The notes: generated from the sequence alone by a model not told the origin. Positions 46,475 through 63,576 are shown, counted from the first letter of the stretch. The stretch: DNA of 64,000 bases from a virus (IMGVR_UViG_3300025133_000033), one strand, 5' to 3'. Program-made: numbers and translations.

Positions 46475-46733
46475 AAACTCAGGTGCAACTCGCGTGCTAC
46501 TGACTATCTCAAGACTACCCAAGCTAGGTCGGCTGCGACGGCGGAATACTCCCCGGTTGGTATTTAAATTCTCAAAAAAAAACTCGGGTGCAAAGACTTG
46601 ACGGGGGACTGGGGACTTTAAGCTATAAGGGCTGAGACATTCCTCAGAATGGCAAAAAATCCGCTGAAAAACTCGCGTGCAAGGACTAGACGAGGGACTA
46701 GGGGCTTTAAGCTATATGGGGTAGTACACCCCC
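46475..46733 (+). repeat. family B repeat, three tandem copies (AACTCGCGTGCAA...GAC...AAGCTA...ACA); also at 50890, 55662, 61749
   Basis: Visual alignment of six co-oriented copies (the 46487 copy is degenerate). Confidence 0.8.
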
Positions 46734-47120
46734 ACAATGGGGCAAAAAAAATCCCAGAAGTAGGAGTTTTTAACTTTTTGTTCTAAGTCCTTTAATACCA
46801 ACAACTTACGTCCACGCAACAAGGGCCAAGTCATAAGTCGTTACGTACCAATACCTTACAGCTATTATTATAGCACTTTTCCGGCTCAAATCAAGGGGGA
46901 ATTTCCGTAAACCCTTTAGCTGCAAGAGTTTACAACAAATCGCCCTAAGTCCTTTCATACCAAGGGGTTACGTCCAGGCCCGGCCCGGCGGCGAGCTAAG
47001 TCCTTTGATACCAACGGGTTACGTCGATTTTTTGCGAGAATGCATAAAAAAACCCCCACCCCCCGGTTACCGGCTTTGCGGGCCAGCTCACGGGGGGCAG
47101 GGGTAGGAAAGTCCCTCAGA

Positions 47121-48074
47121 TTAGGTAGCCAGGGCAACGGCCTGAGTTAGGGCGTCACGGTTCTGGTTTCCGTTTTGACCGAACCAGAGCGAATCCATTC
47201 GGTTGGCCTCATTTCGGCCCTTCTCGTAGTTCAGGTACTCGCTGACGGAGTTGTAAGCTCCCCACCAAGTGCCCGCTACGCCTTCCAGATCGGCACCGCG
47301 ACCCGTCTCAAAAAGTTCCTCCACACGCGACACGATATTCCGCGAGCGGGTTGCAATGTCCTCATCCTTTTTGATGGCTTCCTTTGCACCCAACATTACG
47401 ATTTTCACGTACTTGTGAAGATCGGCGGAGTTGATCGCACGCGATGCCAGAAAACGATACTGGTCGCACGTCGATTCAAATTCCTGATTTGCGAGGTTCA
47501 TAATGTCCCGCAACTTTTCCACGTTCTCCTTGACGAAACGGTGATGGCGAACGCGGATCAGCTTCGACGCTTCGCAATCACGAGCGAGAGCCTCAGTGTT
47601 CGAACACACCACCCGAATGGGGGTGAACCCGAAGTGAACCGCCAGCTTTCCATCGTGCCCGTTCGAGAGCAGAGCGAACTTGCGAATCTCATCACCCTTG
47701 ACGATTTCGCTGTTTTCTAAAGCCAACTGACAAAGAACCCAAACCCGTTGACCGTCGCGAAGGGAACCAGCCGTGTGCCAATTCATGTCGCCTGACTCAA
47801 CCAGAGGCTCGAACACCTTAAAAGAGTCTGCATTTTGCAGAGGAGTCCAACGAGGACCAACGACACCCAAAACGGAATCATCCGATTCGCGTACAGACGC
47901 TTGAGCCTTGACTTCCTCGCCATTAGCTCGAAAGAGGGGTTCGGTCTTGACTGACCAATCCAAACCCGCCTTGATCATCACATCCTCAGTGGTTTCAGTA
48001 CCATCGAGGGGGTTGCCCAAACCATGCCAGGGAACCTCACCAAAAAACGCCATCTGCTCAACTGCTGCGGTCAT
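47121..48074 (-). CDS. DUF932 family (phage/plasmid-like TIGR03299) protein
   Basis: PWHGLG, AGLDW.V, LQN, TAGSL..G..VW, NGHDG, TPIRVVCSNT, GTWWGAYN. Confidence 0.9.
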   Translation of the reverse strand: MTAAVEQMAFFGEVPWHGLGNPLDGTETTEDVMIKAGLDWSVKTEPLFRANGEEVKAQASVRESDDSVLGVVGPRWTPLQNADSFKVFEPLVESGDMNWHTAGSLRDGQRVWVLCQLALENSEIVKGDEIRKFALLSNGHDGKLAVHFGFTPIRVVCSNTEALARDCEASKLIRVRHHRFVKENVEKLRDIMNLANQEFESTCDQYRFLASRAINSADLHKYVKIVMLGAKEAIKKDEDIATRSRNIVSRVEELFETGRGADLEGVAGTWWGAYNSVSEYLNYEKGRNEANRMDSLWFGQNGNQNRDALTQAVALAT

Positions 48075-48116
48075 AACGACCTCCTTTTGAAAACCTTCCG
48101 AACTTGTTATGCCTTA

Positions 48117-48144
48117 ATTATACAATAGTTTATCGCGAAGTCAA
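48117..48144 (-). promoter_or_regulatory. sigma70 promoter (representative of about 20 in 48-64 kb)
   Basis: TTGACT-N16-TATAAT; similar at ~49928, 50836, 51284, 51852, 52655, 52945, 53148, 54119, 55793, 56515, 58846, 60139, 61055, 61337, 61699, 62169, 62629, 63142. Confidence 0.85.
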
Positions 48145-48554
48145 CCCCTGCTGGGAAAGTTTTTCAGAAAAATAAATCGCCGTAAGTCGTTGGTATCAAA
48201 GGGGTTAGGTCGGCCCCCGGCGGCGGCTGGCCCTAAGTCCTTTAGTCACAAGGGTTTACGTCAGAAACTTCCAGTAATTCGGTGCTGATAATTTTCGAGT
48301 CGCTCCCGTCGTGCGTCACGGCGTAGTAGCAATTAGCGTTGCAATCGTCAATCATGTCCTGCTCAGTAGTCGAGCCGTTCTCAATTAAATTTAATTTAAT
48401 TATAGCATAGGCGGTAAGATAGGGCATTGTAGCTCCAGTGTAATATAGCCCCCCTTGCGGGGGGCTATGGTTCACAAGTTAGGTTAGCTCTCCATCCATG
48501 TGACGAACACCCACAGAAAGAGGAGCACGATAAAGGTGAGGGCTAGGGCCTCAA

Positions 48555-48860
48555 TCATTCGGCGGATTCGGTAGGGGCCTCCGCCGTATCAGGTTCCGCC
48601 GTTTCAGCTTCCAGCTCAGCCATGAGCAATGCCACCTCATCATTGGTGGCCACATGCGGCCCATTAGAGGAGGTATACTTGGGAACCGCGTTGAAAACCT
48701 TGGGATACCGCTTTCGATTGCGGGTCAAGGCTTGCTTAAACGATTCGAGCGAGGTATAACCCAGCTCAGTCGCAGCTTTTTCGGCGGTGTCGAACTCATC
48801 CCGCTTGGAGATAGTAACACGTAGAAAATCTTTCAGGGGGACATGGATTCGATTGGACAT
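48555..48860 (-). CDS. hypothetical protein, possible HTH
   Basis: AEKAATELGY...SFKQ; own promoter at ~48896. Confidence 0.6.
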   Translation of the reverse strand: MSNRIHVPLKDFLRVTISKRDEFDTAEKAATELGYTSLESFKQALTRNRKRYPKVFNAVPKYTSSNGPHVATNDEVALLMAELEAETAEPDTAEAPTESAE

Positions 48861-49114
48861 AAAAGTCTCCTAAAAAAAGAAAAAGGTTTGCACTAATTGT
48901 ACCATACTGGTTGGGATTGTCAACCTTGAAAAGTCAAAAAAACACACCCAGCATCAAGCACATCGTCATGCTCAGAAAATTCGATAGTATCGGCGGGGTA
49001 ATATTCCCCTACGGTCGCATCGTAAAAAGTAACGCTCTCATCGAGAAAATCACCCCCAGACTCATTTGATTGTTTTAGAATAAACTCGCTCAATTCTCCC
49101 CATGACATCATTGC

Positions 49115-49897
49115 CTAGACTCCTACAAAAAACCCTTGTGATTGCTCAATGCGGGCTTTTGCTTTTTTCTTATTCTTAGGCAATTTGACCCCTAGCCCGA
49201 CTATAACGCCAGCCGGATCATTAAAGCGTAAATCGGAAACATCCCCGTTGACTACCTTCCACCCATTCCAACTAGACGGAATGATCGGCTTCAAAGTATT
49301 CTTATCGTAAAATGGAACCGCAACATTCATGCCACATTCTAGCACGTTCCGAACATAGTCCAGACTAGACCGTTCCGACCATGAGTAGGTCAGATGATAA
49401 TTCTCAGGTAAATCACCATGACACCATGCAGACACGTAAGATTTTACTTTTGTATATCCGTAAAATTTCCACTTAGGAAAAATGTCGAACATTTGCGGCA
49501 ATTTTAGGTGCCACGGTTGATCGCTCAACACATTAGGACGGAAGGCTACAGGAACCCCCAGACGGGTGGCTTTACGATCCACTTTGTGCAACTCAGGAAG
49601 CAAGATCGACCAAAATGCCTTGAGATCGGTCGCGTACAATTTTGTACGGTTAATTCTCACCTTGTCAATAGAGGGGGTAAATTCAGCCCGTCCCGTGCCC
49701 CCCAGACATGCGGCTTTGCATAGCTCAGTAAATGCGGGGCACATATTGTGACCAGACAGATCGGCTTGGGCCAGACTAACTCCGGCGTTATACCACCCCA
49801 CAGACTTGAGCAGTTTGGCGTTCGCGTGCGGCTCAGTAATAAGACTACCGAAACCATGCGATTGTGCCAGCGATTTTGCAGCTTGTAAACTCAGCAT
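49115..49897 (-). CDS. GP88-like phage protein
   Basis: NMCP....CKAACL...GR, RPNVLSD, FYGYTK, NYHLTYSWSE, GDVSDLRF.DP. Confidence 0.8.
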   Translation of the reverse strand: MLSLQAAKSLAQSHGFGSLITEPHANAKLLKSVGWYNAGVSLAQADLSGHNMCPAFTELCKAACLGGTGRAEFTPSIDKVRINRTKLYATDLKAFWSILLPELHKVDRKATRLGVPVAFRPNVLSDQPWHLKLPQMFDIFPKWKFYGYTKVKSYVSAWCHGDLPENYHLTYSWSERSSLDYVRNVLECGMNVAVPFYDKNTLKPIIPSSWNGWKVVNGDVSDLRFNDPAGVIVGLGVKLPKNKKKAKARIEQSQGFFVGV

Positions 49898-50024
49898 AGC
49901 TTTCCTTTCCTCTTGGGTTATGCTTCAATTATACAATACGTAGTCCGAAAGTCAAGCCCCCTAGCAATATTTTTATCAGAAAAACAGATCGTCGTAAGTC
50001 GTTACCAGCAAAGGGTTTACGGTT

Positions 50025-50040
50025 TGGCATGATATTTGCA
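50025..50040 (+). promoter_or_regulatory. sigma54 -24/-12 motif (first of 10 on + strand)
   Basis: TGGCAYG-N4-TTGC at 50025, 53207, 54189, 56574, 57828, 59413, 60478, 61406, 62238, 63211. Confidence 0.75.
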
Positions 50041-51037
50041 GTAAGAAATCGTCGTAAGTCGTTGGTATCAAAGGGGTTAGGTCGTCGCCGGGCCGGTCAC
50101 CAACCTAAGTCCTTACACAGCAAGGGGTTACGTCGATAATTAATCGCCTTTTAAAAGTCGGTTACGTGTTTCACCTAGAATTTTAAGCTGCTTCAAATAC
50201 TCCTCACGCTGAACAGTAAACCAAGCGTTCTCGGCCTTGAGGGATAGCTGATCAATAGCGACTTCTAGCTCAGCAATCTTCTTTTCTCTTTTTTCTCTCA
50301 TAATACCTCTAAGGTAGGAAGATCATCAACAACTTTACACTTAAAGCTTTTTACTAACCAGCCACTCTTATCGCTCAAGGCGTCAGCAATTCCTTCTTCG
50401 TCGTCAACGTCCACGGTCATTTGGTCGGAAAGATTACCTTTTATTTTAGTGGCTTCTATAGCATCTCCATCGGTATCCTCAGCCTCAACGCACCAGTCTA
50501 TATCATAGCAAAATACCTTCATTATAGCCCCTCCCATAAATTATCAGTTTGTTCCATGAACTCTTCAAAGTCACAGCCGCAATCGTCACAGAACCCGAAG
50601 CCGTTTATATTGCCTATCTTACAGTCAGGGCAACTAGCTCCCTCGTATTCACCGTATTCGCTGCTCATTTTTTCCCTCGATTCGGCGTTTCTTTTTACTG
50701 TACTTTTTAAGCCACTCCGTTTTCTCACGGCGACCCCTACCACAGCGGGAGCCGCCCATCCCTCCCTTAATCTTCATAAAATTCGTCCCTTTGTGCACGG
50801 GAATCGTTCAGTCATTGTGTTTCTCCTATGCTTCCATTATACCTTATGTATCGTCACAGTCAACCCCTAGCCTTTAATTTTATCATAAAAAGTCGCGTGC
50901 AATGAATGAATAGGGGACAGGGGACATCAAGCTAGATAGGCTGGTACATATTACCCCACAAAAAAACCCCATCAGACTAAACTGATAGGGCATTGGGTCT
51001 ACATCGTCGAAACGATGCACCACGCGGCATGGAGCCG

Positions 51038-51250
51038 CTAGACTAATGTGATTCGCGAATCAAGCCGCATAAACTTGTAGCTTGAAAACCGCTTGTCGTC
51101 GTAGAGCGAGGGATTCTCGTGGTCTACAGTAAAGATTGCCTTGTCAACTTCGGTAACGTGACCAATACGTTCCTTTTTGTTGTACATAAAAGACACCTTC
51201 TGTCCCGGTCGCACATTACGACAATCTGTCAAAATTACTGGCACTGTCAT
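51038..51250 (-). CDS. small Sm/WYL-like domain protein
   Basis: VSF.Y....R...V...RFSSYK..RL pattern; own promoter. Confidence 0.5.
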   Translation of the reverse strand: MTVPVILTDCRNVRPGQKVSFMYNKKERIGHVTEVDKAIFTVDHENPSLYDDKRFSSYKFMRLDSRITLV

Positions 51251-51611
51251 TTTCCTTTTCTCCTTGGGTTAATGTATATCCTAATTATACCATGTTAGTC
51301 TCGAAAGTCAATAGAAAAAAACGAAAAAACTTTTCGTCGTAAGTCGTTGCTATCAAAGGAGTTAGGTCGGCCCGCCGCCGGTCGTCGCCCTAAATCCTTA
51401 TCAGATAACGACTTAGGGGCATTCTATTCCCCTTCTTCTACAGAGTCAATATCTGTTGAGGCATCTATCCATTGCTGCCCCTGACCGCTTTCAAGCCAAG
51501 CCATCGACGCGGCATCATCTACGTCTTCGGCTTCTACCGGGATTGTTATTGTCTTTTTTAAAGTAACTAGATATTGAGGCATTTGCTTTCCTTTTGTTTA
51601 AAAATAAAAAT

Positions 51612-51753
51612 AAGGGATAACGGGATTCGAACTATAGCTGGCGTGTCTCACCACAGTACTATGCGACCACGAGGGCAGTTGCAACTACCCATTGGGACCA
51701 GCCCGCATTCCTGGCATTAGCTGCCAGTACATTGCCTCTTATGTTATATCCCC
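51612..51753 (-). tRNA. CUA-anticodon tRNA-like gene with 70-nt insertion in the T arm
   Basis: GGGGATA/TATCCCT, ACAT/ATGT, CTGGC-AGCTAAT-GCCAG, GCGGG[insert]TTCGAAT-CCCGT. Confidence 0.65.
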
Positions 51754-51764
51754 AACACTTTTAG

Positions 51765-51838
51765 CGACCCTAACCGGAATCGAACCGGCAACCCCTAGAT
51801 AGACAATCTAGTGCTCTGCCTGATTGAGCTATAAGGTC
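51765..51838 (-). tRNA. tRNA-Asp(GTC), second copy
   Basis: CTAGA-TTGTCTA-TCTAG; homologous to 36592..36666. Confidence 0.9.
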
Positions 51839-52295
51839 AAATCATACTATCATTATACCATCGGGCGTGGTAAAGTCAACCCCATAGCAGAAAAAACAAT
51901 AAGAAATCCGATAATAAGTAGAGTTTCCATTCTGGTCTCCTTCCCTACTACTATTATCGGCATTTGTCAACCCCAATCTTTAATACTTCATAAAAGAAAA
52001 AAAAGATGTAAGTCCTTTGGTAGCAAGGGGTTACGTCCACTCCTCCCGGCGGCTCGCCCTAAGTCCTTACGTGGCAAGGACTTACGACGAAACCTTAGTA
52101 ATTTATGTAGGAAAAAAATCGGCGGAACTCACCCTTTACTCTAGTGGAACCTTTACGTGCAAGCCGCACACCGGCAAGTCTTTTTTCATTCTATCGACTG
52201 TCGAAAAAAGCTCTAGCTGTCAAAAAAGTATGGCTACGGTCCTGTGAGTTTTGTCGGGACTACTCGATACAGAGACTTTACCCGTCACTAGTGAG

Positions 52296-52367
52296 TATTG
52301 CACCGGGGTAACGCTCCCCGCTCTCCAGCTTGAAGGGCTGGCGACATCGCTCCTAGTCCAGTGCAAC
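52296..52367 (-). tRNA. tRNA-Glu(TTC)-like with atypical T loop
   Basis: GTTGCAC/GTGCAAT, CCAGC-CCTTCAA-GCTGG, CGGGG-AGCGTTA-CCCCG. Confidence 0.65.
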
Positions 52368-52414
52368 AAAGATGCCCCGTTTTACGTCGGGGCCACACGT
52401 CAAGGGGATGAACC

Positions 52415-52603
52415 CTACAGGTCGGCGTTGACGTTGTAACGATCACGGGCGACCTTGCGAATGTAGCCGATCTGCCCAGTATGCAAGGTTTTACCCGAGC
52501 CTACTTCGACGATTCGAGCCCATTGGCTGTTTTGACTATTCGCCCGAGTATTTCGCACGATGCGAATCTTCGTTGCGAACAAAGCGGTAGAAACTTTACG
52601 CAT
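52415..52603 (-). CDS. small basic hypothetical protein (MRKVST...)
   Basis: AAGGGG RBS and own promoter. Confidence 0.6.
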   Translation of the reverse strand: MRKVSTALFATKIRIVRNTRANSQNSQWARIVEVGSGKTLHTGQIGYIRKVARDRYNVNADL

Positions 52604-53334
52604 GTTGATTTCCCCTTGTAGGAAAAAGAAAGTGATGACCAGCACGATACTTTGATTATACCATGCTGGTCGTGAAAGTCAATAGACTAATAGCTTTTTT
52701 TGCCGCGAATTACTTTCGCTTCGATCAGAGAGTTTTTGAGCGACTTGAACAAAGACAAAGCGTCGTTGTGGCTCATGTCCGTTTGGACCTTAGTTTCGTC
52801 CAGACCGACAATTTCGGTGAGCGTCAACTCGATCCGATCACGATAGTTTTTGTAAGTCGATCCGGTAGCGTTTTTCAGCTCGTGTTTGATGACAGTTTTC
52901 ATGGTCTCGTTTCCCTTGTGAAGTAGTAGTGAAGTTGTACCCTGATTATACCATGTCGATGGCAAAAGTCAAGGCCAGACTAAAAGAATTTCTTAAAAGT
53001 TTTGATCGCACGTCGTAGAACCCGAACGTTGATCTTGAACATATCGTTGTGGTAGCCTAGCTCGCACATTTCCAGTTCGCAGTCCAGCTCGTCCATTAGT
53101 CGTAAAACTTTTTTGTAGTTCATTGTTTTTCCCTTCCTTATACCCCCATTATATCATATCGGCTCTTAGAGTCAACCCTCTTGAGAGAAAAAACTCAGAA
53201 AATTTTTGGCACGGTATTTGCAGTAAGAAATCGCCCTAAGTTGTTGGTATCAAAGGGGTTACAGCGGCCCCCTGCCGGGGCTTGCCCTAAGTCCTTATAT
53301 GGCAAGCACTTACGACGATTCTTTCCGTATGTAC

Positions 53335-53370
53335 AAAAAGAAACCCCGGCAGATCTTTACCGGGGCTTCT
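53335..53370 (-). terminator. intrinsic terminator
   Basis: CCCCGG/CCGGGG hairpin followed by a U-rich tail on the - strand. Confidence 0.6.
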
Positions 53371-54110: not shown

Positions 54111-55317
54111 ATACCACCATTATACCATTTGGGGTTATAATGTCAAGGGGCAACGGCTTAAATATCAAAGAAATAACAGAAAAACTTTTGGCACGGCATT
54201 TGCAGTAAGAAATCGTCGTAAGTCGTTTAATAGCAAGGGGTTAGGGCGAGCCCCGGCGGGGCGTCGATGTAAGTCCTTTGCTAGCAAGGGTTTACGTCGA
54301 TTTTTCTTCTTTTATCACATGAGAAATGGGAATCCAAAACTTTTTCTTACCCCCCTCAATGGATTGTCGAAACTCTACATAGGCTATGCCCATTCTAGTC
54401 TTGATCACATTACAATCATAAATAACCCCCATCGTCTGGGGGTGGAACGCTTTTGCTTTGGTCATTTTTATCCCTGTGGAGTAATAGAATCGAAGTTTAA
54501 TTCTCTAACATTACGCCTACGCATGTCGCGGCGTAATAGTCGAACCTGCTTCGCTAAAAGCTCAATCCTGTTCAGCTTAACATGATAAGCGTCCTCTGCC
54601 CTATGAATGTCTTTAGCCTCTACTAGCTTGGTCAGCCATTCTATTCTTTTTGCATCTATTAATTCAGCAATTTCTAATAGGTCGCATTCTTCCATTACCC
54701 GTCACTCCTTTGAATCCAATCAAAAATGGCATCGTCCAAGCTATCCGTATAGTGGCCCCAGTACGTTGACCCTGGAGTGCTCGGATTAGATAGCCACGTC
54801 ACAAACCTGTGGACGTGCTGTTCACCAAAATCAGCCACCCAGCACCAACAGCCATCCCGCCTTTGTAGCCGGTCGATGATCGTCGCCCCGTTGGGCAGCT
54901 TCTTATCTTCGTAGGGATTAAACATTTTAACCTTTCCAGTTGACTGAGCATTTAAGACCGTGAGATTCCAGATAGTCTAGAATCAACTCCGCCCTTTTCT
55001 TCGTTTCGACGATCTTGCTTTGCCTCTCGCCTCTTTTGTCCCACCATTCGATTTCCCACATCTGCCAACCTCCACGTCATTTTGGGCAACGTGAGAACCA
55101 TCTTCCAGCGTGATCCCGCCAGCAGTGATTTCCGTTACACGAGAACCATTGTAAAACCAACCCAAACCTAATAACTGCATAATCAATACTCCTTGAGTAC
55201 TTTACGAAACTTGTCCCCGCGTGTACGCTCACGCTTGGTGCGTTTATCTTTCATCGTTACCGCTCGGCATTTCGGCATCCAAATTCTTTTTTTTGTAGTT
55301 TTCATATCTCTATTATA

Positions 55318-55653: not shown

Positions 55654-56675
55654 GGTAAAAAAACTCGCGTGCAATGAATGAATAGGGGACAGGGGGCAGG
55701 AAGCTAGATCGGCTAGGACAGATATTCCCCACGGATATGAGCGACCATAACACGCCAACGCCCGAACTTATTAGGTATCTTTCCATGCTTCTATTATAAC
55801 ATCGGCTTTCTTAGTGTCAACCCTTGAGGAAAAATATATAGAAAAACTTTTCGTCGTAAGTCGTGGCTATCAAAGGGGTTAGGGCGAGCCGCCGCCGGTT
55901 GTCGCTGTAAGTCGTTGGTATCAAAGGACTTATAGCCCTTTTTTGACAAACCATACCCTATACATTCCCGCCATAACGTGCTGGCTTTTAATCTCGTAAA
56001 AGCTGCCGTTAAAGGGTTTCTTAAAATCTTGAGCATCTTTAAGCCAAGTTTTAATATCCCTTAGCGTCCATGTATAGGTGCGGGATGGATTCCAATTTTC
56101 CATAACTAATCCTTAAACATAAGGGGCCAACCATCCTCATCCAGATCAAGCCCGATCTGTTGAGCCTCTTCGAACTCATCCATAGGATAAGTATCCTGGT
56201 CGTGCAAATTGCCTAGATTAAGATGTTCCACGGGTTCCACCAAATGATCAATCATTCTTAAACTCCTGGGATGTAGCCACCACTGGCCGATTCTACTTCC
56301 TTACCATTTTTGTCCACAGCTACCACATGACAGCCGCAACATTCACAATTAAACGACACCTTTATCTTGAGCAGCTTGATACGCTTCCGCCCTAGACTAT
56401 CCTTATAGGACACACGGACCTTTCGCCCCGCATGTTGAAGCAGCTCTTGGTTATTATAACCGGCTCGTAGATTGATAACTGGTTTCATTTTGTCACCTTT
56501 GCTTTGATACTTTAATTATACTATTGGTATCGGCTATGTCAAGGCACACCATTAAATATTTTGATATTTTTATTGGCACGATATTTGCGTAAGGAATCGT
56601 CGTAAGTCCTTTGATACCAAGGGGTTAGGGCGAGCCCCAGCCGGTCGTCGCCGTAAGTCCTTTGATACCAACGGG

Positions 56676-56888
56676 TTACGTCGATTTTTTTAGGGGCTTA
56701 GCAATATCTACCTCGTTTAGGGGGAGCCATCCCATCCACATATCAGCAGCCTCCACCAATACGGATTGCTCACCCCTCATGCAGGGAGGAAAGTCTACAT
56801 CTTTGATCTTAAATATGGGGCCATGCTCTCTGATCCTGTCGCGGGTTCTTTTGGTGGCTCGCCTTGCTTTGGGTTGTAGTATTCTCAT
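56676..56888 (-). CDS. hypothetical protein; near-identical copy at 63313..63525
   Basis: One amino-acid difference; stop codon supplied by the family A dyad. Confidence 0.7.
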   Translation of the reverse strand: MRILQPKARRATKRTRDRIREHGPIFKIKDVDFPPCMRGEQSVLVEAADMWMGWLPLNEVDIAKPLKKST

Positions 56889-56940
56889 TATAAGATCTTT
56901 ATGGTGATGTCGGCCAGGGCCAGTCTAACTCAAAATGTGT

Positions 56941-57135
56941 TGGTGGGTCAGCAGGAGTCGAACCCGCATTGGCACCGTCCACCTGTTGCTGTTGACCTTA
57001 GTGCTCCCGCACTGCAAGGAGTTGATCACCCTCCGAGCTGTCAACGAACGGAAGGGTGGATAGCCCTTCCAACAACGAACGATACTGGATACCACGTATC
57101 AGCCACCCGCTTTGTTGCGGATAACCTATGCACCC
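56941..57135 (-). ncRNA. ~195-nt tRNA-shelled RNA, copy 1
   Basis: T arm GCGGG-TTCGACT-CCTGC, encoded CCA; covaries with 58209..58402. Confidence 0.8.
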
Positions 57136-57260
57136 AAATTGTATTGTTGGAAGTTTCTGTTTTGTTATGCGGATCAACTTCCTAAGAAACCGCTTCGTCA
57201 ACTTGCTTAATGTACACTTGACAAGTCAACAGGCTTTGTGGGGGAATTTAGCCCCGAACC

Positions 57261-57515
57261 TTATTCGCATCCGTACTTTTCGCATTCCTTGATTTTGTTT
57301 TGAATGTATAACTCTCGGGCACCCGAGAACGCGGGCACGCGGTACACGTTGACCTTCTCGTCAAGTACAACGTCAACATCCCCGTAGGTTTCCACAAAGT
57401 ATTGAACATCGGACTCGTCACACAACAGCAGTTGCGAATCGGTTCGAGTTTCAACAGAACGCATAGCGTTGCCATAAGCGGGAAGGGTAACTTGCATTTG
57501 GGAAGCTTTAATCAT
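57261..57515 (-). CDS. hypothetical protein; paralog of 63577..63834
   Basis: Shared Y.VP..S.AR..YI..K...C..YGCE C-terminus. Confidence 0.7.
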   Translation of the reverse strand: MIKASQMQVTLPAYGNAMRSVETRTDSQLLLCDESDVQYFVETYGDVDVVLDEKVNVYRVPAFSGARELYIQNKIKECEKYGCE

Positions 57516-57538
57516 AATCTTACTCTTTCAAAAATACC

Positions 57539-57596
57539 GGCTATTCAGTCCCTTGGTGGGCTACTCGCTACTCACGAGTCCAGTAAGCCTTGCTTT
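57539..57596 (-). ncRNA. three-way-junction 5' leader motif (also 59123-59183 and 63854-63914)
   Basis: Conserved GGCTTACTGGA/TAGC/ACTGAAT with covarying stems. Confidence 0.65.
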
Positions 57597-57613
57597 CTAT
57601 AGTATATATATAA

Positions 57614-57629
57614 TGCACTATTCGTGCCA
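57614..57629 (-). promoter_or_regulatory. leftward sigma54 -24/-12 motif (copy at ~59198-59213)
   Basis: TGGCACG-AATA-GTGCA. Confidence 0.65.
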
Positions 57630-57930
57630 AAGCGAACAAAATAAAAACTTTTTTATAAGTCGTTGGTATCAAAGGGTTTAGGTCGTGCCAAAACTTTTCT
57701 TCAAAACCCCCCCTTTGTCAAGAAGTGTAGTCAGTTTGTGAGCAATTCTGAAAATCTTGTCGTAAGTCGTTGTGTGGTATAGGGTTACAGCGATTCTCAT
57801 TTTGGGACCAGATTCTCATTTTGGGATTGGCACGATATTTGCAGTAAAAAATCGTCGTAAGTCGTTGGTATGAAAGGACTTAGGGCATCGCCGGGCCGGG
57901 CGTCGATGTAACCCCTTGGTATCAAAGGGC

Positions 57931-58038
57931 TTACGTTAAGGCGTACGCTATAAGAATAATAGCAGTCGTGCCGAGGAACATCACGGCGGCGGGTATGATG
58001 AGAACCTCAGTAATAAAGAAAACAATAGCACGCAACAT
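57931..58038 (-). CDS. 35-aa hydrophobic membrane peptide MLRAIVFFITEVLIIPAAVMFLGTTAIILIAYALT
   Basis: GAGG RBS; same-length homolog at 62354..62461. Confidence 0.7.
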   Translation of the reverse strand: MLRAIVFFITEVLIIPAAVMFLGTTAIILIAYALT

Positions 58039-58129
58039 GTCAAGTACCTCTAGAAAGTGTCAAGTATAATCAGTACATCGCGGCCAATCTGGTATTACGC
58101 CGATTCGAGGGGATTTCTCCAGTCCCCTT

Positions 58130-58141
58130 TTAGTAGCCCAT
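58130..58141 (-). CDS. Met-Gly-Tyr minigene
   Basis: AGGAGG-N9-ATG GGC TAC TAA; conserved at 62572..62583 with synonymous GGA. Confidence 0.55.
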   Translation of the reverse strand: MGY

Positions 58142-58208
58142 TGGTTTTATCCTCCTCATGTTGAAACTGCTAACCCGTCTATCAGAGTCAGCCAAACTTG
58201 TCATGTAT

Positions 58209-58402
58209 TGGCAGGCGTGTCGAGAGTCGAACTCGAATTGGTCTAACCACTTGTTGACGTTTTGCTGCGATGCTCCCGCACCAAAAGGGCTGTACACACC
58301 CTTTGCAGCTAACTAAGGTAGGCTGGATAAGCCTACCGACAACGGTTAAACTGGATACCAAATATCAGCCACCCGCTTTGCTGCGGGCTAGCTTACACAC
58401 CC
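58209..58402 (-). ncRNA. ~195-nt tRNA-shelled RNA, copy 2
   Basis: GGGTGTG/CACGCCT-G-CCA; TCGAG-TTCGACT-CTCGA. Confidence 0.8.
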
Positions 58403-59697
58403 AGATTGTATTGTTGGGCGGCGGCTAGGTCGCTCGTTAGGCCACCATTCCAGGCGGCACCCATTTGTTTTAACCCGTTCAATCTAACCTGCGGGTTCAT
58501 GTACCCTGCGGAAGACTTTTGAACGACCCAGCGTTTTTTATCAACGACTTACGCAATCGGAACGGATGTCTTTTTGTATTGTGGCGGGGGTTAACCCGCT
58601 TGCCATGTTTTCAGTTATACTATAAATCTTGCCGTTGTCAAGCCCGAATATGAAATACTTTTTCAACTCGGTAAGTATATTCGCTTTCTTCCTCTCTGGT
58701 TAATTTGGCCCATGCCTCATTTGCCGCTTTCTCAGTCTCGTAACTTACGATGATTGAGTTACCTTGGCTTCCCCTGTTAAAATCCATAACGATGACATAG
58801 TTCATAGCTCTGTTTCCTTGGTGGCGTTGTGTTTTGTATTACTGAATTATAGCATAGGTGGCGGGTTGTGTCAACACCTAAAAGCGAATATTTTCACCAT
58901 TATGGCAGCGAATCCCCAGGACAGCATTACCCGCCCACTGGGTTAGGCGAAGATACTTCTCCTCCTTAGTTTCATGCCACTTGGCACGATATTCAGAAGC
59001 AAGACGCATAGCCTTATCCATATCATAGCCTAGCTTTTCAGCGGCCTCCAATGCTTTGGCTTTGCGGTGGTCGTGAATACGTTGGGCTAAAATGTAACTC
59101 ATAAAAACTCTTTCTAAAATTAGCAAGGCGATTCAGTCTCAGGTGAGCTACTCGAATTTTTCGAGTCCAGTAAGCCTTGCTTTCTATAGTATATATAATG
59201 CACTATTCGTGCCAAACTAGAGAAAATTGAAATTTAGTCGTAAGTCGTTGATACGAAAGGACTTAAGGCGTGCCAAAACATCTTCTCAAAACCCCTCCTT
59301 TGTCAAGAAGTGTCGTCAATTTGTGAGCGATTTTGAAAATCTTGCTGTAAGTTATTGGTATGTATAGAGTTACGGCCATTCCCAAATCGAGACTCGATTC
59401 TCATTTTGGGATTGGCACGGTATTTGCAGTAAAAAATCGTCGTAAGTCGTTGGTATGAAAGGACTTAGGGCATCGCCGGGCCGGGCGTCGATGTAACTCC
59501 TTTGGCAGTAAGGGTTTACGTCGATTTCTTTCGGGGGGTGCAGTCCATGTCTGTATGGGTATAAAAAAACCCCCCTGGAGCTTGGTTCGCCACAAACCGC
59601 TCGACAGGGGGGCACCACAACGTAAGATTTTATTTTTTTAATAATCCATTAAAACCCTTTCCCCAGATTGTATTCCTCGGCATTTAATTGTTTCTGC

Positions 59698-60096
59698 CTA
59701 GTATTTGTAACACACCCGATCTTCTAGGTCTTCAGCGTCGATCACGCCACCGCTAATCATACCCCCCACAAAGACCTGTTCATTTCGGTACAGCTTATCT
59801 GCATTAACATCATAGGTGATGTGGACTTCCTCTTGTCCGGTCTTGAACTCGATCAACTGAGCCTCCACTTGGGCACGATATGCGGCGATACGCTTGGCCT
59901 TTTCTGCCTTGAGTTGGGCACGCTCGACGCTCGCTTCCACTTCCCGATTGTAGACCTTGTTGATCCCGTCCAGGGTTCGCCCGCCCGACTTGTTATCGTG
60001 GTAGCGTTCGGGGAGCATGGAATTGGGAACGAAGATAGCATCATTCAGAGTCAGGGTGATTTCTTCTAGTAGCTCGTATCCAGTTTTGGTCGTCAT
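59698..60096 (-). CDS. hypothetical protein
   Basis: Own promoter, AAGGA RBS. Confidence 0.65.
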   Translation of the reverse strand: MTTKTGYELLEEITLTLNDAIFVPNSMLPERYHDNKSGGRTLDGINKVYNREVEASVERAQLKAEKAKRIAAYRAQVEAQLIEFKTGQEEVHITYDVNADKLYRNEQVFVGGMISGGVIDAEDLEDRVCYKY

Positions 60097-60764
60097 GGCG
60101 ATTTCCTTTATGTGGCGTATGTTGTTTCTTATACTCTTATTGTACCAAGTGATCTGAGAATGTCAACCCCTAGCACCGATTATTTCGAAAATACTTTAGA
60201 TTCGCAACAATCGGTTACAATCGAGTGCCCCGAAAATGGCAGGGTCTTAACTTCGAATTTCATATTAGGATCTTTGTGGGTATAGCTTACCCCCACGGTG
60301 CATTGTGTCTTACACCCGATAGAACTAGAAACGAGCAAGCCAGCAATGAGAGCGATGGTGATGTAGATGTACTTTTTCATAGTTTTTCCTTTATGTTGAT
60401 TGCCTTATCCTATACTATATATATCGGCATGTCAACCCCAATCCATTAACAAAACCCAAATAAATACGAAATACTTTTGGCACGGTATTTGCGTCAAAAA
60501 TCGTCGTAAGTCGTTGCTACCAAAGGAGTTAGGGCGAGCCGCCGCCGCCCGTCGTCGTAAGTCCTTACGTACCAAGGGGTTACGTCGATAATTTGAAGAC
60601 GGTTTCAATGCCGGATACGACAAGGCTAGAATAGTCCTTATAGCTATCAAGTAGCTGGCTAATAGCGTGGACTTCGTTCTCCGCTTCAAAGTCGCAGAAC
60701 TGTACAAACGTCAACTTGTCGTCGCGGCACAATTCCTGATAAGTTACGCGAAATTTAGACATTT

Positions 60765-61016
60765 TTATCCCTCATATCCAAAGTCGTAGTCCATCCCGTC
60801 ATAATCGTCATAAAAGCCATAGGATTCGTCGCATTCGCAGAAGTCGTCCAACTCCTGACGTTCGAGCTGCAAGTCACGATGATACTCCACCATGTCGTCA
60901 GCCGCCCCCTCACAGATAGCACAGATCTCTACGTCGTGGGCGACTAGGGAGCCGCAGTCCTCACAGGTCCACACGCCAGCCATGATACGCGAGTCGATTT
61001 CTTGCTTTTCACACAT
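60765..61016 (-). CDS. acidic Zn-ribbon protein; paralog of 61902..62129
   Basis: MCEK...DSR...W.CEDCG.LV...DFCECDESYG. Confidence 0.7.
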   Translation of the reverse strand: MCEKQEIDSRIMAGVWTCEDCGSLVAHDVEICAICEGAADDMVEYHRDLQLERQELDDFCECDESYGFYDDYDGMDYDFGYEG

Positions 61017-61901
61017 AATAAAAATCCTTGGGGGAACGTGGTGGTTATGCTTCAATTATAACAAGTGTTTGGCGGGTGTCAACCCTATCCCGATAAAATT
61101 CTCAAAGTTTTTTAAAACTCTGAGGCTGTCGGCTGATCGTTGTGCTGTTCAACGAACTGGTTGAATTCGAGCGTCCACCTATGTGGGTGGCTCACTATCC
61201 CCACGATCTCATCAGCTCGCCAACCCTCATCGGCTAGGTGGCTGAGGAACATGGCGAAACCTTCGGTCGTGAGCGTGAGTCCGGTAGTTGTCTTGAGCAT
61301 TTTGCTTCCTTAGCAAGTGGCGTTTAGTACTCTTCCATTATACATAGTATCGGTCGTTTGTCAACAACAAAACCACTAAATACCGAAATAAACCCGAAAT
61401 ACTTTTGGCACGATATTTGCAGTAAGATTTCGTCGTAAGTCCTTTCATACCAACGACTTACATCGACGCCGGGCGGGTGGCCCACCTAAGTCCTTATATA
61501 CCAAGGGTTTACGTCGAATCATTTTCCTTTTTTAGCTACACATACAGGTGCCCCAATCAACACAACACGTACTAGTCCACACTTGACACAATGAACACCA
61601 TACCATATCACCCCCACAGGAATGACAGTATTCGTCCCCTTCCTCATAATCATTTGGCTTATCGTCGTCGTACATCGTATTTCCCTTTCCTTTACTTTAT
61701 TATAGCATATGTTCCAACTGGAGTCAACCCCTAAACCCGCGTGCCAGAAACTCGCGTGCAATGTATGTAGAGGCGACAGGCGACCGAGAAGCTACTATGG
61801 GTAGTACAGTCCCCCCATTAGTAGGGCATCACCTCATCAGGAAGGTAACGGCTGATCCAACTATTCGGAAATTCCTAATAGTTCGCCAACTTTAAGATTT
61901 T

Positions 61902-62129
61902 CTACCATTCGTCCCCCCCATAGCAACCATAGGACTCATCACATTCGCAGAAGTCCTCCCGCTCCTGAGATTCGAGCATCTCATCACGAGCCATTTCCGC
62001 CGACCATTCCTCATCGACGCAACAGCATTCCTCCACGCTATTGGGCACGAGAGCCCCACAATCCTCACACACCCAAGCGTCACCAAGGAAAGATTCGCGG
62101 GAATCGACGTTAGCTTTTTTTTCACACAT
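61902..62129 (-). CDS. acidic Zn-ribbon protein; paralog of 60765..61016
   Basis: Same motifs. Confidence 0.7.
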   Translation of the reverse strand: MCEKKANVDSRESFLGDAWVCEDCGALVPNSVEECCCVDEEWSAEMARDEMLESQEREDFCECDESYGCYGGDEW

Positions 62130-62353
62130 GACATAAGCTCCTGAACACGTTGCGTTTAGTACTCCCTCATTATAGTATATATCGGCATCTTGTCAACATC
62201 TAAATCAACAAAATCACAAAGAAACCCAAAATACTTTTGGCACGATATTTGCGTAAGGAATCGTCGTAAGTCCTTTGATACCAAGGGGTTAGGGCGAGCC
62301 CCAGCCGGTCGTCGCCGTAAGTCCTTTGATACCAACGAGTTACGTCGAAAAAT

Positions 62354-62461
62354 TTAGGAGATTAGCACGGCCAGTACTAGTACGGATAGCGTACCCACGA
62401 ATAGTACTAGAGCGGGGATAACGAAAACTTGCGTCAAAAAAGAAATAATATCACTAATCAT
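62354..62461 (-). CDS. 35-aa hydrophobic membrane peptide MISDIISFLTQVFVIPALVLFVGTLSVLVLAVLIS
   Basis: Homologous to 57931..58038. Confidence 0.7.
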   Translation of the reverse strand: MISDIISFLTQVFVIPALVLFVGTLSVLVLAVLIS

Positions 62462-62571
62462 GTCAAGTACCTTGGAAAAGTGTCAAGTATTAGTCTGATT
62501 CGATAGCTAAGCTATCTCGGCACCCTTACGGATTATGGTGCCTTTTATAGGGGGCTGAGTCCGCTCCCCTT

Positions 62572-62583
62572 TTAGTATCCCAT
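62572..62583 (-). CDS. Met-Gly-Tyr minigene, copy 2
   Basis: AGGAGG-N9-ATG GGA TAC TAA. Confidence 0.55.
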   Translation of the reverse strand: MGY

Positions 62584-63312
62584 TGGCTTTGTCCTCCTAT
62601 GTTGGTTGTCGTTGTTTTGTATGGTTTAATTATACCATGTTGTCGATTGGTGTCAACCCCATTCGCAGTTACTTTTCTGGTTTGTTCAGAAAGTTTTCGT
62701 ATAGCCCCTGATAAGGGGGTACTGGCTTAGGGAAAGCACAAGCACCATGGAACACCACAGCACCGGGAACAGGCTTACTGCAAGGCTTACCGCATAAGCC
62801 GCAGTTTCCAGAACCTTTTTCTTTGTGTTCCCAAACGTGTGGTTTTCGTGGCATGATGTTTTTCCTTAGTGGCGTTGTTTTGTATAATTGAATTGTAGCA
62901 GATTAGTTGGTTGCTGTCAACCCCTGATAGCAGATTATTAGAACATTTCTCATCATGCTCTCGAAATCAGCATAGGATACAATCCCGCACCCATTGGTAT
63001 CGAATAGCACGTCAACAGCTACGTCCATACCATAGCGGTCGATTGCAATGAAGCAATCATTAATGGTAAGATCGCAACGGGCGAGAGTGTCATTTGTGTC
63101 AATCATCATAATTCCTTAGTAACCTTGTTTAGTACTCCCTCATTATACATAGTATCGGCAATTTGTCAACACCAAAACCACTAAAATCACAAATTAGTCC
63201 AAAATACTTTTGGCACGGTATTTGCGTAAAAAATCGTCGTAAGTCCTTTGATACCAACGGGTTAGGGCGAGCCGCCGCCGGTTTTCGTCGTAAGTCCTTT
63301 GATACCAACGAG

Positions 63313-63525
63313 TTACGTCGATTTTTTTAGGGGCTTAGCAATATCTACCTCGTTTAGGGGGAGCCATCCCATCCACATATCAGCAGCCTCCACCAATACG
63401 GATTGCTCACCCCCCATGCAGGGAGGAAAGTCTACATCTTTGATCTTAAATATGGGGCCATGCTCTCTGATCCTGTCGCGGGTTCTTTTGGTGGCTCGCC
63501 TTGCTTTGGGTTGTAGTATTCTCAT
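63313..63525 (-). CDS. duplicate of 56676..56888
   Basis: Near-identical DNA including flanks. Confidence 0.7.
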   Translation of the reverse strand: MRILQPKARRATKRTRDRIREHGPIFKIKDVDFPPCMGGEQSVLVEAADMWMGWLPLNEVDIAKPLKKST

Positions 63526-63576
63526 TATAAGATCTTTATGGTGATGTCGGCCAAGGCCAGTCTAATTTGTCAAGTA

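What the first reader, a model, noticed from the sequence alone, without database searches (positions are those of the whole stretch)
46784..63315. Cassette region punctuated by 16 fixed-geometry dyad pairs (9-7-9, 51-bp period)
Seen: each module is TAAGTCSTT-N7-AASGRSTTA, a GC-rich linker and a second dyad. The linker was 26 bp in nearly all pairs counted (25 bp at 46784) although its sequence varies, so the two dyads sit ~5 helical turns apart. Modules lie between transcription cassettes, and the last TTA supplies the stop codon of at least four genes (56676, 57931, 60580, 63313). Known: inverted arms around a 6-8 bp spacer are typical of tyrosine-recombinase core sites. Each half also resembles the IHF consensus WATCAANNNNTTR (for example TACCAAGGGGTTA). 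Inference: these are phased binding sites for a host nucleoid/IHF-like protein or a phage protein that organises a probable early region, or recombination sites that shuffle cassettes. No recombinase gene is in this window.
Basis: partly seen in the sequence, partly recalled or inferred. Interest (0 to 1): 0.8.

Follow-up and report, generated by a model that had tools for sequence, protein, structure and literature searches.

The report
Paired protein-binding dyads punctuating phage early genes
A large uncultured marine phage marks the start of nearly every early-gene cassette with two 25-bp palindrome-like sites held a fixed distance apart by a GC-rich spacer; related phages share the element, it behaves like a protein docking site rather than an RNA fold or a recombinase site, and its binding protein is unknown.

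Summary
The window holds 16 dyad pairs (15 at 51 bp, one at 50) plus 6 single dyads. All lie in 46784-63315, none in the other 46.7 kb (chance 0.08).

Genes here run on the minus strand. Each pair is the core of a 115-220-bp regulatory cassette, read in gene direction:
- end of the previous cassette, often with the dyad's TAA as stop codon;
- dyad, 26-bp GC-rich spacer, dyad;
- in 10 of 16 cassettes, a consensus sigma54 promoter pointing back into the dyads;
- an AT-rich tract;
- a near-perfect sigma70 early promoter.

I found 82 such modules in seven phage genomes whose proteins are only 25-55% identical. Twelve bases per dyad are almost invariant and the centre varies. Nothing covaries within or between dyads. 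Spacer length is fixed within each genome (51 or 53 bp) although spacer sequence drifts.

Best reading (0.5): paired sites for an unidentified dimeric, probably DNA-bending protein that controls the flanking promoters. Cassette swapping through recombination between the repeats would be a side effect, as with T4 PeSL motifs. The site-specific recombination reading is not supported. The IHF likeness is only partial.

Unchecked notes from this scan report more pairs near the start of the same genome record.

The parts
46784..46858 (.). dyad pair (50-bp period, linker 60% GC); lies just downstream of a sigma70-like promoter at 46867-46894
46946..47021 (.). dyad pair, 51 bp; preceded (in gene direction) by a terminator-like hairpin and T-run near 47040-47090
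48183..48258 (.). dyad pair, 51 bp; upstream of the DUF932 gene promoter
50055..50130 (.). dyad pair, 51 bp
51340..51415 (.). dyad pair, 51 bp
52009..52084 (.). dyad pair, 51 bp
53237..53312 (.). dyad pair, 51 bp
54219..54294 (.). dyad pair, 51 bp; its last TTA is the stop codon of ORF 54292-54465(-)
55857..55932 (.). dyad pair, 51 bp; stop codon of ORF 55930-56103(-)
56603..56678 (.). dyad pair, 51 bp; stop codon of ORF 56676-56888(-)
57858..57933 (.). dyad pair, 51 bp; stop codon of the 35-aa ORF 57931-58038(-)
59443..59518 (.). dyad pair, 51 bp
60507..60582 (.). dyad pair, 51 bp; stop codon of ORF 60580-60762(-)
61436..61511 (.). dyad pair, 51 bp
62267..62342 (.). dyad pair, 51 bp
63240..63315 (.). 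dyad pair, 51 bp; stop codon of ORF 63313-63525(-)
49995..50019 (.). single dyad, 5 bp upstream of the sigma54 motif at 50025
57656..57680 (.). single dyad ending 26 bp upstream of the sense-strand sigma54 promoter at 57614-57629 (centre about -65)
59241..59265 (.). single dyad; paralogue of 57656 in the duplicated block, upstream of the sense sigma54 promoter at 59199-59214
50025..50040 (+). sigma54-type -24/-12 motif (1 mismatch) pointing into the module, antisense to the genes
53207..53222 (+). consensus sigma54 promoter; the dyad starts 15 nt after the -12 GC
54189..54204 (+). consensus sigma54 promoter pointing into the module
56574..56589 (+). sigma54 promoter pointing into the module
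57828..57843 (+). consensus sigma54 promoter pointing into the module
59413..59428 (+). consensus sigma54 promoter pointing into the module
60478..60493 (+). sigma54 promoter pointing into the module
61406..61421 (+). consensus sigma54 promoter pointing into the module
62238..62253 (+). sigma54 promoter pointing into the module
63211..63226 (+). sigma54 promoter pointing into the module
57614..57629 (-). sigma54-type promoter in the gene direction (1 mismatch), in the duplicated block
59199..59214 (-). sigma54-type promoter in the gene direction; paralogue of 57614
63142..63169 (-). 12/12 sigma70 promoter downstream of module 63240
62169..62196 (-). 12/12 sigma70 promoter downstream of module 62267
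61337..61364 (-). 12/12 sigma70 promoter downstream of module 61436
56515..56542 (-). 12/12 sigma70 promoter downstream of module 56603
55793..55820 (-). 12/12 sigma70 promoter downstream of module 55857
54119..54146 (-). 12/12 sigma70 promoter downstream of module 54219
53148..53175 (-). 11/12 sigma70 promoter downstream of module 53237
51284..51311 (-). 11/12 sigma70 promoter downstream of module 51340
49928..49955 (-). 11/12 sigma70 promoter downstream of module 50055
48117..48144 (-). 11/12 sigma70 promoter downstream of module 48183 (drives DUF932)

Best explanation
Each 25-bp dyad is a docking site for a sequence-specific dimeric protein that probably bends DNA. The protein is unidentified. 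It could be a conserved host nucleoid factor of the IHF kind or a phage protein encoded outside the window. Two such sites are held at a fixed distance (51 bp here, 53 bp in sister lineages) by a stiff GC-rich spacer. The spacer also keeps this 76-bp near-palindrome from extruding as a cruciform. In gene direction the pair sits just after the end of one early cassette. It lies upstream of the next cassette's near-consensus sigma70 promoter, on a preferred helical face. In this lineage it also covers about +4 to +29 of an antisense sigma54 promoter. I infer that the bound pair works as an operator or architectural element that sets the output of the flanking promoters. It could tune or shut off the early promoter, and it could block antisense and read-through transcription, so that each cassette is a separate unit. 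Because the element is repeated about once per kilobase, it also gives homologous recombination a foothold for swapping cassettes, as with PeSL motifs. Shown: the anatomy, the conservation pattern, the spacing, the promoter geometry and the breakpoint positions. Inferred: protein binding, DNA bending and the direction of regulation.
For: Real and local: 36-38 sites, all in 16.5 kb, against 0.08 expected by chance. Family-wide: 82 modules and 177 dyads in seven genomes whose shared proteins are 25-55% identical. T1 A2 A3, C6, T8 T9, A17 A18, G20 and T23 T24 A25 are present in 145-177 of 177 dyads, while the 7-bp centre is free. Not a folded strand: variable arm positions 4/22, 5/21 and 7/19 pair no more often than shuffled ones. 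Dyad 1 and dyad 2 of one module are less complementary than random partners from the same genome. Spacing is selected: 15/16 (window), 22/22 (G007), 14/14 (G006), 9/10 (G001) and 8/9 (G002) modules share one length per genome, although linkers are only 57-78% identical. Linkers average 78% GC in genomes of 35-43% GC. Promoter coupling: the dyad starts 14-15 nt after the sigma54 -12 GC in 23 cases from three lineages. The distance from the proximal dyad to the -35 hexamer peaks at 33, 44, 54-55, 74, 84, 95 and 106 bp (Rayleigh R 0.42 at 10-10.25 bp, p about 2e-4 against a uniform null). A sigma70-like promoter at 46867-46894, and its counterpart in L055, also fires straight into a dyad.
Against: No binder was found. 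The window and its relatives show no DNABII, HTH_3, AbrB or enhancer-binding protein, and no conserved small ORF in the module regions. The complete relative G005 has no dyads yet keeps the same sigma70 promoters, so the element is dispensable for promoter function. Pair spacing differs between lineages (51, 52 or 53 bp), which argues against one strict helical phase. The periodicity test counts related modules as independent, so its p-value is too optimistic. About ten further strong sigma70 promoters in the region have no module. The direction of regulation is a guess.
Confidence: 0.5

Rival explanations
1. The modules are mainly recombination substrates with no dedicated binder. On this view they are repeated promoter-linked sequences of the PeSL kind that persist because homologous recombination between them shuffles and spreads cassettes.
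For: The repeat unit is 115-220 bp at 70-86% identity, while the genes between units are unrelated. In L060 against L066 (95% identical), a replaced segment ends exactly at the first base of a module and two others end just after the promoter. L056 against L060 shows three more breaks at the module's upstream edge. L056 and L053 carry an extra promoter-gene-terminator unit inserted at the promoter. L051 carries half-modules fused to a -35 hexamer. G005 lacks the element altogether. PeSLs are described in PMC2839356 and PMC4122927.
Against: Recombination needs similarity, not a particular sequence. It does not explain twelve near-invariant bases per dyad across phages with 25-35% protein identity, a free centre, an indel-free spacer, or the fixed distance to the sigma54 promoter.
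Confidence: 0.15
2. The module acts as RNA. It would be a roughly 90-nt long-hairpin small RNA made from the sigma54 promoter (or the sigma70 promoter at 46867-46894), or a two-way terminator between cassettes.
For: The predicted sigma54 start lies 4-5 nt before the dyad. The plus-strand module folds into one long hairpin of -29 to -39 kcal/mol, z -2 to -4. Several modules are followed by a T-run on one or both strands. Classical terminators are not enriched in a region with more than 20 strong promoters. Scan note e1-5704106 proposed such a unit elsewhere in this genome.
Against: There is no covariation within or between dyads, and partner dyads are if anything less complementary than random. 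The coding-strand folds are not better than shuffles in half the cases. The stems are AU-rich with systematic mismatches. In relatives the T-runs lie 10-15 nt away, and lineages G001, G002 and G007 have modules but no sigma54 promoter.
Confidence: 0.12
3. The dyad pair is the enhancer (UAS) for a host sigma54 activator. The activator would switch on antisense transcription through the preceding cassette and so shut off early genes.
For: There are ten consensus sigma54 promoters with invariant spacing to the pair, plus twelve more in G006. Paired dyads are typical of activator sites. FlrC of Vibrio binds downstream of the start site and still acts as an enhancer (PMC6504787). Two sense-strand sigma54 promoters have a dyad centred near -65.
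Against: Modules occur without any sigma54 motif in G001, G002, G004 and most of G007 and G009. No activator gene or GAFTGA signature is present in the window or its relatives. A site centred at +16 would overlap the open complex. A promoter-adjacent site at -65 is where IHF usually sits, not the activator (own knowledge).
Confidence: 0.1
4. The dyads are core sites of a site-specific (tyrosine) recombinase that excises, inverts or inserts cassettes.
For: The 9-7-9 geometry fits. The sites sit at cassette borders. One short contig (L023) joins sequences flanking the two copies of a 356-bp duplicate, as an excised circle or tandem duplication would.
Against: The central 7 bp differ among sites, and tyrosine recombinases need matching overlap regions (own knowledge). 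No integrase or resolvase is found in five module-bearing relatives, including the complete G007. None appeared among the families listed for the window's ORFs. The L023 junction lies in a 356-bp repeat that starts at the sigma54 motif, not in a dyad, and may be an assembly chimera. Breakpoints also occur at promoters.
Confidence: 0.05

Closest known systems
PeSL (promoter-early stem-loop) composite motifs of T4-like phages (PMC2839356, PMC4122927)
   Same: A repeated composite regulatory motif stands at the border of small-gene cassettes in a plastic early region. It includes a near-perfect TTGACA-N16/17-TATAAT promoter. Insertions and replacements between close relatives end at the motif. 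This phage also has rIIA and rIIB.
   Different: A PeSL pairs the promoter with a simple G-run/C-run terminator hairpin. Here the partner is two 25-bp sequence-conserved dyads around a GC-rich spacer of fixed length. There is no covariation, the element is usually not a canonical terminator, and an antisense sigma54 promoter is often present. The dyad sequence is kept across phages that share almost no DNA similarity.
Stoperators of cluster A mycobacteriophages (PMC9283540, PMC6550527); by my own knowledge also the conserved inverted repeats bound by the phiC31 repressor
   Same: One short site is repeated many times in intergenic positions, with a consistent orientation relative to transcription. 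In those systems it is bound by one phage protein that blocks initiation or elongation.
   Different: Those sites are single, 13-17 bp long, spread over the whole genome of temperate phages, and have a known repressor. Here the sites come in fixed pairs, are confined to the early region of apparently lytic phages, and have no identified binder.
IHF sites upstream of phage early promoters (lambda pL, Mu Pe; own knowledge) and the IHF-H' complex (PMC5829579)
   Same: Each half-dyad keeps YAA-N4-TTA, the core of WATCAANNNNTTR. The invariant TT/AA steps are kinkable. The sites lie 80-170 bp upstream of strong early promoters with helical phasing. A single dyad sits at about -65 of a sigma54 promoter, the usual IHF position.
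   Different: IHF sites are asymmetric, whereas these are palindrome-like. The two cores lie 2 bp closer than a symmetric fit to kinks 9 bp apart would need. W-A-T is not conserved in the family, while C6/G20 and the CG flanks, which the IHF consensus does not include, are conserved.
Downstream enhancers of sigma54 promoters (FlrC of Vibrio cholerae; PMC6504787)
   Same: Activator-type paired sites lie just downstream of a sigma54 start site.
   Different: The phage modules also exist without sigma54 promoters, start only 4-5 nt after the start site, and have no known activator.
BIME/REP elements of enterobacteria (own knowledge)
   Same: Pairs of about 25-35-bp imperfect palindromes with a short linker lie between genes, at the 3' ends of transcription units. 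Some bind IHF or gyrase.
   Different: REPs show structure-preserving variation and are chromosomal. These dyads show none and were found only on phage or phage-like contigs.

Membership tests
PeSL-type composite regulatory cassette | Repeated motif at the borders of small-gene cassettes in a plastic early region | tested here: met
   16 modules in 16.5 kb; the genes between them are unrelated
PeSL-type composite regulatory cassette | Near-consensus sigma70 early promoter within the motif | tested here: met
   Nine 12/12 and twelve 11/12 promoters on the minus strand; 13 of 16 modules have one within about 125 bp
PeSL-type composite regulatory cassette | Simple GC stem-loop terminator next to the promoter | tested here: not met
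   The partner is a dyad pair with no covariation. Terminator-like sites are not enriched (17 against 18.9 in shuffles), and only 3-4 modules have a separate terminator
PeSL-type composite regulatory cassette | Indel or replacement breakpoints between close relatives fall at the motif | tested here: met
   L060/L066 and L056/L060: breaks at the module's first base and just after the promoter. Few pairs were available
Tyrosine-recombinase core site | Inverted arms around a 6-8-bp spacer | tested here: met
   9-7-9 geometry
Tyrosine-recombinase core site | Matching spacer (overlap) sequence between partner sites | tested here: not met
   Positions 10-16 are close to random across 177 dyads and differ within the window
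Tyrosine-recombinase core site | Cognate recombinase encoded by the element | tested here: not met
   No PF00589 or PF00239 in G001, G002, G004, G006 or G007. The window's own complete genome could not be searched
IHF binding site | Match to WATCAANNNNTTR | tested here: inconclusive
   AA and TTA are invariant and C16 is present in 44%. W, A and T are present in 63%, 36% and 28%. Window sites mostly read TACCAA-N4-TTA
IHF binding site | Asymmetric site with kinks 9 bp apart and TTR 6 bp from a kink (PMC5829579) | tested here: inconclusive
   The site is symmetric. Its two cores fit only as two overlapping opposed registers 2 bp apart
IHF binding site | Binding by IHF | not testable with these tools
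   The host is unknown and no binding assay was possible
Sigma54 enhancer (activator UAS) | Linked to a -24/-12 promoter | tested here: inconclusive
   23 fixed-distance cases in the window, G006 and G009, but modules without a sigma54 motif in G001, G002, G004 and G007
Sigma54 enhancer (activator UAS) | An activator (AAA+ with GAFTGA) is available | tested here: not met
   None in the window or the loci. PF00158 hits in relatives are generic AAA+ hits. Host activators could not be tested
Integron attC site | Structure-conserved imperfect palindrome, promoterless cassettes, and an integrase | tested here: not met
   No covariation, each cassette has its own promoter, and there is no integrase
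Structured RNA or intrinsic terminator | Base pairs kept through compensatory change | tested here: not met
   Watson-Crick pairing at variable positions is at or below shuffled levels. Fold z-scores range from +0.2 to -4.1
Repeated operator network (stoperator-like) | Many copies of one site plus a cognate phage repressor | tested here: inconclusive
   The copies are there. No repressor-type domain was found in 42 cassette ORFs or in relatives

The most novel reading that the evidence does not exclude
A broad clade of large marine phages uses a dedicated nucleoprotein 'punctuation mark'. A protein of unknown family (or a hijacked host IHF-like factor) would clamp paired dyads at every early cassette. 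Its arrival or loss would then flip the whole early region at once. In this lineage the flip would release a battery of antisense sigma54 promoters whose transcripts run head-on into the early genes. That would be a phage-wide temporal switch built on host sigma54, which to my knowledge and in the searches made here has not been described.
Probability: 0.15. Interest if true: 0.85.

Novelty: new variant of a known kind. Interest (0 to 1): 0.6.

Why it matters
Early regions of large lytic phages are full of unknown host-takeover genes, and how they are timed and reshuffled is poorly understood outside T4, T5 and T7. This is a sharply defined cis-element. Its core bases are conserved across phages that otherwise share only a few distant proteins. 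That gives a direct handle (a 25-bp probe) for fishing out a regulator, from host or phage, in uncultured marine phages. Its rigid link to consensus sigma54 promoters pointing against the genes would, if functional, be an unusual use of the host's enhancer-dependent polymerase by a phage. The element also marks cassette borders and can be used to find early regions and cassette turnover in metagenomic phage contigs.

Tried and rejected
1. Whole-genome search of the window's own assembly: none is held. Extending past 64000 through an encoded protein gave only 1-1.7-kb contigs.
2. Similarity to deposited phages: no DNA match.
3. Strain-level cassette gain or loss: contigs L017-L022 are 99.98-100% identical to the window, so they carry no information.
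4. Phylogenetic profiling against the module-free complete relative G005. The one striking candidate (27023-29062, missing in G005) turned out to be rIIA and was dropped. Other genes missing from G005 are an epimerase, a DUF1501 protein, an HNH nuclease, a SET-domain protein and zinc-ribbon proteins, and none is present in all module-bearing phages.
5. Binder search. There is no GAFTGA or Walker signature of sigma54 activators. PF00158 gave only generic AAA+ hits. There is no DNABII, HTH_3 or AbrB/MazE. No DNA-binding Pfam family appears among 42 cassette ORFs. No ORF family is shared by all module regions.
6. Host clue from bacterial genomes: paired modules occur only on short contigs of metagenome bins assigned to unrelated phyla, most likely mis-binned phage DNA.
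7. RNA reading: folds and two covariation tests gave no support.
8. The paper on FlrC binding sites (PMC1082837) is not held, so the FlrC site sequence could not be compared.

Full report
**Observation.** A scan for TAAGTCSTT-N7-AASGRSTTA with up to 2 mismatches gives 67 strand-hits against 0.08 expected. My own scan with up to 4 mismatches finds 36-38 sites, all between 46784 and 63315 and none in the first 46.7 kb. Sixteen pairs have a 51-bp period (50 bp at 46784). The 26-bp linker is 77-92% G+C (60% at 46784). There are also six single or degenerate dyads. At least six minus-strand ORFs use the dyad's terminal TAA as their stop codon. The description is therefore correct.

**Anatomy.** Codon-usage log-odds trained on the long genes of the window, together with ribosome-binding sites, place all genes of 46-64 kb on the minus strand. 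Each unit then reads, in gene direction:
- the end of the previous cassette (a stop codon inside the dyad, or a separate terminator in 3-4 cases);
- dyad, GC-rich linker, dyad;
- 14-15 nt;
- in 10 of 16 units, the reverse complement of a consensus sigma54 promoter (TGGCACG-N4-TTGC);
- about 35 bp of AT-rich DNA;
- a near-perfect TTGACA-N16/17-TATAAT promoter with a conserved GCCGATA box in its spacer;
- a ribosome-binding site and one to six small ORFs.

The sigma54 promoters therefore point back into the module, antisense to the genes. Two further sigma54-type promoters, in a duplicated block, point in the gene direction and have a single dyad ending 26 bp upstream. Self-comparison shows that the repeated unit is 115-220 bp at 70-86% identity, while the genes between units are unrelated. 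The region holds nine 12/12 and twelve 11/12 sigma70 promoters, so it is an early region. About ten of these promoters have no module.

**Context and relatives.**
- The window comes from a large phage with 17 tRNAs, rIIA/rIIB, SSB, a RuvB-like ATPase, a sigma factor and sugar-modification genes.
- No whole genome is held and no deposited phage matches it. Identical contigs occur in marine metagenomes.
- The pair pattern is present in 16 IMG/VR loci and in relatives found through the DUF932 protein.
- Whole records show the dyads confined to one 10-20-kb stretch: G001 at 97-108 kb of 112 kb, G002 at 82-93 kb of 105 kb, G006 at 28-43 kb of 122 kb. In G007, a complete 229-kb genome, they lie at both ends and so adjoin on the circular map.
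- These phages share few proteins, at 25-55% identity.
- G005 is the complete relative closest to the window (DUF932 77% identical, syntenic over 40 kb). It has no dyads but keeps the same sigma70 promoters.
- In bacterial genome collections the pair occurs only on short contigs of metagenome bins from unrelated phyla. I read this as phage DNA.
- Unchecked notes of this scan report five more pairs and more sigma54 motifs about 85-88 kb before the window, at the start of the same record. The region probably continues around the record's ends.

**DNA-bound protein or folded strand?** Across 177 dyads, T1 A2 A3, C6, T8 T9, A17 A18, G20 and T23 T24 A25 are present in 145-177 cases, CG flanks are common, and positions 10-16 are nearly random. 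At the variable arm positions (4/22, 5/21, 7/19), Watson-Crick pairs are no more frequent than after shuffling. Only 11/15 is enriched, through lineage-specific longer palindromes. For the alternative long hairpin, in which dyad 1 pairs with dyad 2, partners within a module are less complementary than random partners from the same genome at all 13 variable positions. Predicted folds are only modestly better than shuffles, and on the coding strand often not better at all. Base-specific conservation without compensation indicates recognition of duplex DNA by a symmetric protein. The under-complementarity and the GC-rich centre look like avoidance of cruciform extrusion. That last point is my inference.

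**Spacing.** Within a genome the pair spacing is practically invariant: window 15/16 at 51 bp, G001 9/10, G002 8/9, G006 14/14 at 53 bp, G007 22/22 at 53 bp, G009 7/7 at 53 bp. The linkers, however, are only 57-78% identical in ungapped register. The orthologous module upstream of DUF932 has a 26-bp linker in L061 and a 28-bp linker in L060/L066. The difference comes from two single-base indels on either side of the GC core. Indels are thus excluded inside a module, whereas the distance from module to promoter varies freely. Linker composition is conserved (78% GC on average). A loose GGGCGGGCC or GGGGCCCC core appears in either orientation, but no fixed sequence is kept.

**Coupling to promoters.**
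- In 23 cases from three lineages (window 10, G006 12, G009 1), the dyad begins 14-15 nt after the -12 GC of the antisense sigma54 promoter. It therefore covers about +4 to +29. The intervening bases differ between lineages, so the distance itself is conserved.
- A sigma70-like promoter at 46867-46894, and its counterpart in L055, also fires directly into a dyad.
- In G001 and L001, TTGACA lies 33 bp from the dyad edge and points inward, often on both sides. In L051 the same 33-bp distance recurs with a wholly different GC-rich filling. I cannot say whether these are working promoters.
- The distance from the proximal dyad centre to the -35 hexamer of the outward sigma70 promoter clusters at 33, 44, 54-55, 74, 84, 95 and 106 bp. 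This gives R = 0.42 at a period of 10-10.25 bp and p about 2e-4 against a uniform null. The modules are related by descent, so this p-value is optimistic. The presence of several classes that differ by whole helical turns is nevertheless the expected signature of a face-of-helix constraint.

**Who binds?** I found no candidate.
- There is no sigma54 activator, no DNABII protein, no HTH_3 or AbrB domain, and no integrase or resolvase in module-bearing relatives.
- No DNA-binding Pfam family appears among 42 cassette ORFs.
- No ORF family is shared by the module regions of all lineages.
- The one gene that seemed to co-vary with the modules is rIIA.
- A protein so conserved in specificity across such divergent phages could be a conserved host factor. 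Each half-dyad keeps YAA-N4-TTA, the core of the IHF consensus, and the invariant TT/AA steps are kinkable. A single dyad at about -65 of a sense-strand sigma54 promoter is where IHF usually sits (own knowledge).
- The fit to IHF is nevertheless imperfect. With kinks 9 bp apart and TTR 6 bp from the kink (PMC5829579), the two cores are 2 bp too close for a symmetric fit. W-A-T is not conserved, and C6/G20 and the CG flanks are not part of the IHF consensus. IHF therefore remains a lead, not a finding.

**Recombination.** The 7-bp centres differ among sites and no site-specific recombinase is present, so I rate the tyrosine-recombinase reading at 0.05.

Cassette turnover is nevertheless tied to the element. 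Between L060 and L066 (95% identical), a replaced 300-bp segment ends exactly at the first base of a module, and two other differences start just after the promoter. L056 against L060 shows three further breaks at the upstream module edge. L056 and L053 have an extra promoter-gene-terminator unit inserted at the promoter. L051 carries half-modules.

Within the window, the 356-bp duplicate (56573-56928 and 63210-63565) starts at the sigma54 motif. Contig L023 joins the flanks of the two copies. It is either a recombinant or an assembly chimera. This is the pattern described for PeSL motifs in T4-like phages (PMC2839356, PMC4122927), where homologous exchange between repeated regulatory sequences moves cassettes.

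**Comparison with known systems.** The element works like a PeSL in marking and shuffling cassettes. It fails the stem-loop criterion, however, and carries a conserved paired protein site that PeSLs lack. It resembles stoperator or phiC31-type repeated operators in copy number and placement, but it is paired, confined to the early region and has no known repressor. It resembles IHF-assisted early promoters and, where sigma54 promoters are present, the downstream enhancers of FlrC (PMC6504787). It is not shown to belong to any of these groups.

**Verdict.** The feature is real and conserved. The literature searches I ran found no description of it. My best reading, at 0.5, is a paired operator or architectural site for an unidentified dimeric protein that controls the promoters on both sides, with cassette shuffling as a by-product. 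It is a new variant of known kinds of phage regulatory repeats. The binder and the role of the antisense sigma54 promoters are the open questions that make it worth bench work.

Noticed in passing
window 46867-63169 (sigma70 promoter spacers); also L047 6756-6790: Most early sigma70 promoters carry a conserved GCCGATA box in the 16-17-bp spacer. The box is kept even in the module-free relative G005, which suggests a second regulatory site or common descent of the promoters.
   Followed up: partly
L023 (1.7-kb metagenome contig) against window 56573-57307 and 62237-63565: The contig joins the sequence next to the 56.6-kb copy of a 356-bp duplicate to the sequence next to the 63.2-kb copy. This is either a recombinant (circle or tandem duplication) or an assembly chimera.
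   Followed up: partly
window 46600-46760; L047 9068-9199: Two to three copies of a roughly 30-bp motif that includes TAGCACGCGAGTT or TTTAAGCTATA, each followed by a small GC hairpin. They sit at the boundary between the early region and the oppositely oriented genes and are conserved in the relative G005. They could be a different promoter class or small RNAs.
   Followed up: no
window 51764-51838 and 52295-52367: Two tRNA genes (Asp, Glu) sit inside the cassette region as cassettes of their own, flanked by modules and strong promoters.
   Followed up: no
window 57522-57936 and 59107-59521: This is a duplicated block, 82% identical. In it a sense-strand sigma54-type promoter, two single dyads and a direct repeat (TCCCAAAATGAGAATC twice) replace the usual sigma70 promoter.
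   Followed up: partly
L009, L001 (G001 lineage) and L051: TTGACA lies exactly 33 bp from the dyad edge and points into the module, often from both sides. In L051 the same distance is filled by a GC-rich inverted repeat and the first dyad is missing.
   Followed up: partly
window 27023-29062 against G005 27.9-28.9 kb: The rIIA homologue has no detectable counterpart in the syntenic complete relative G005, although the adjacent rIIB homologue is kept.
   Followed up: partly
window 50-418 (-): A 122-aa protein with an RF-1 (peptide chain release / ArfB-like) domain lies next to the tRNA cluster. A TatA homologue and a sigma-70 region 2 protein are also present among the window's ORFs.
   Followed up: no
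L062 against L063, about 4861-4982: Two otherwise identical contigs differ by a 64-bp repeat unit between two modules.
   Followed up: no
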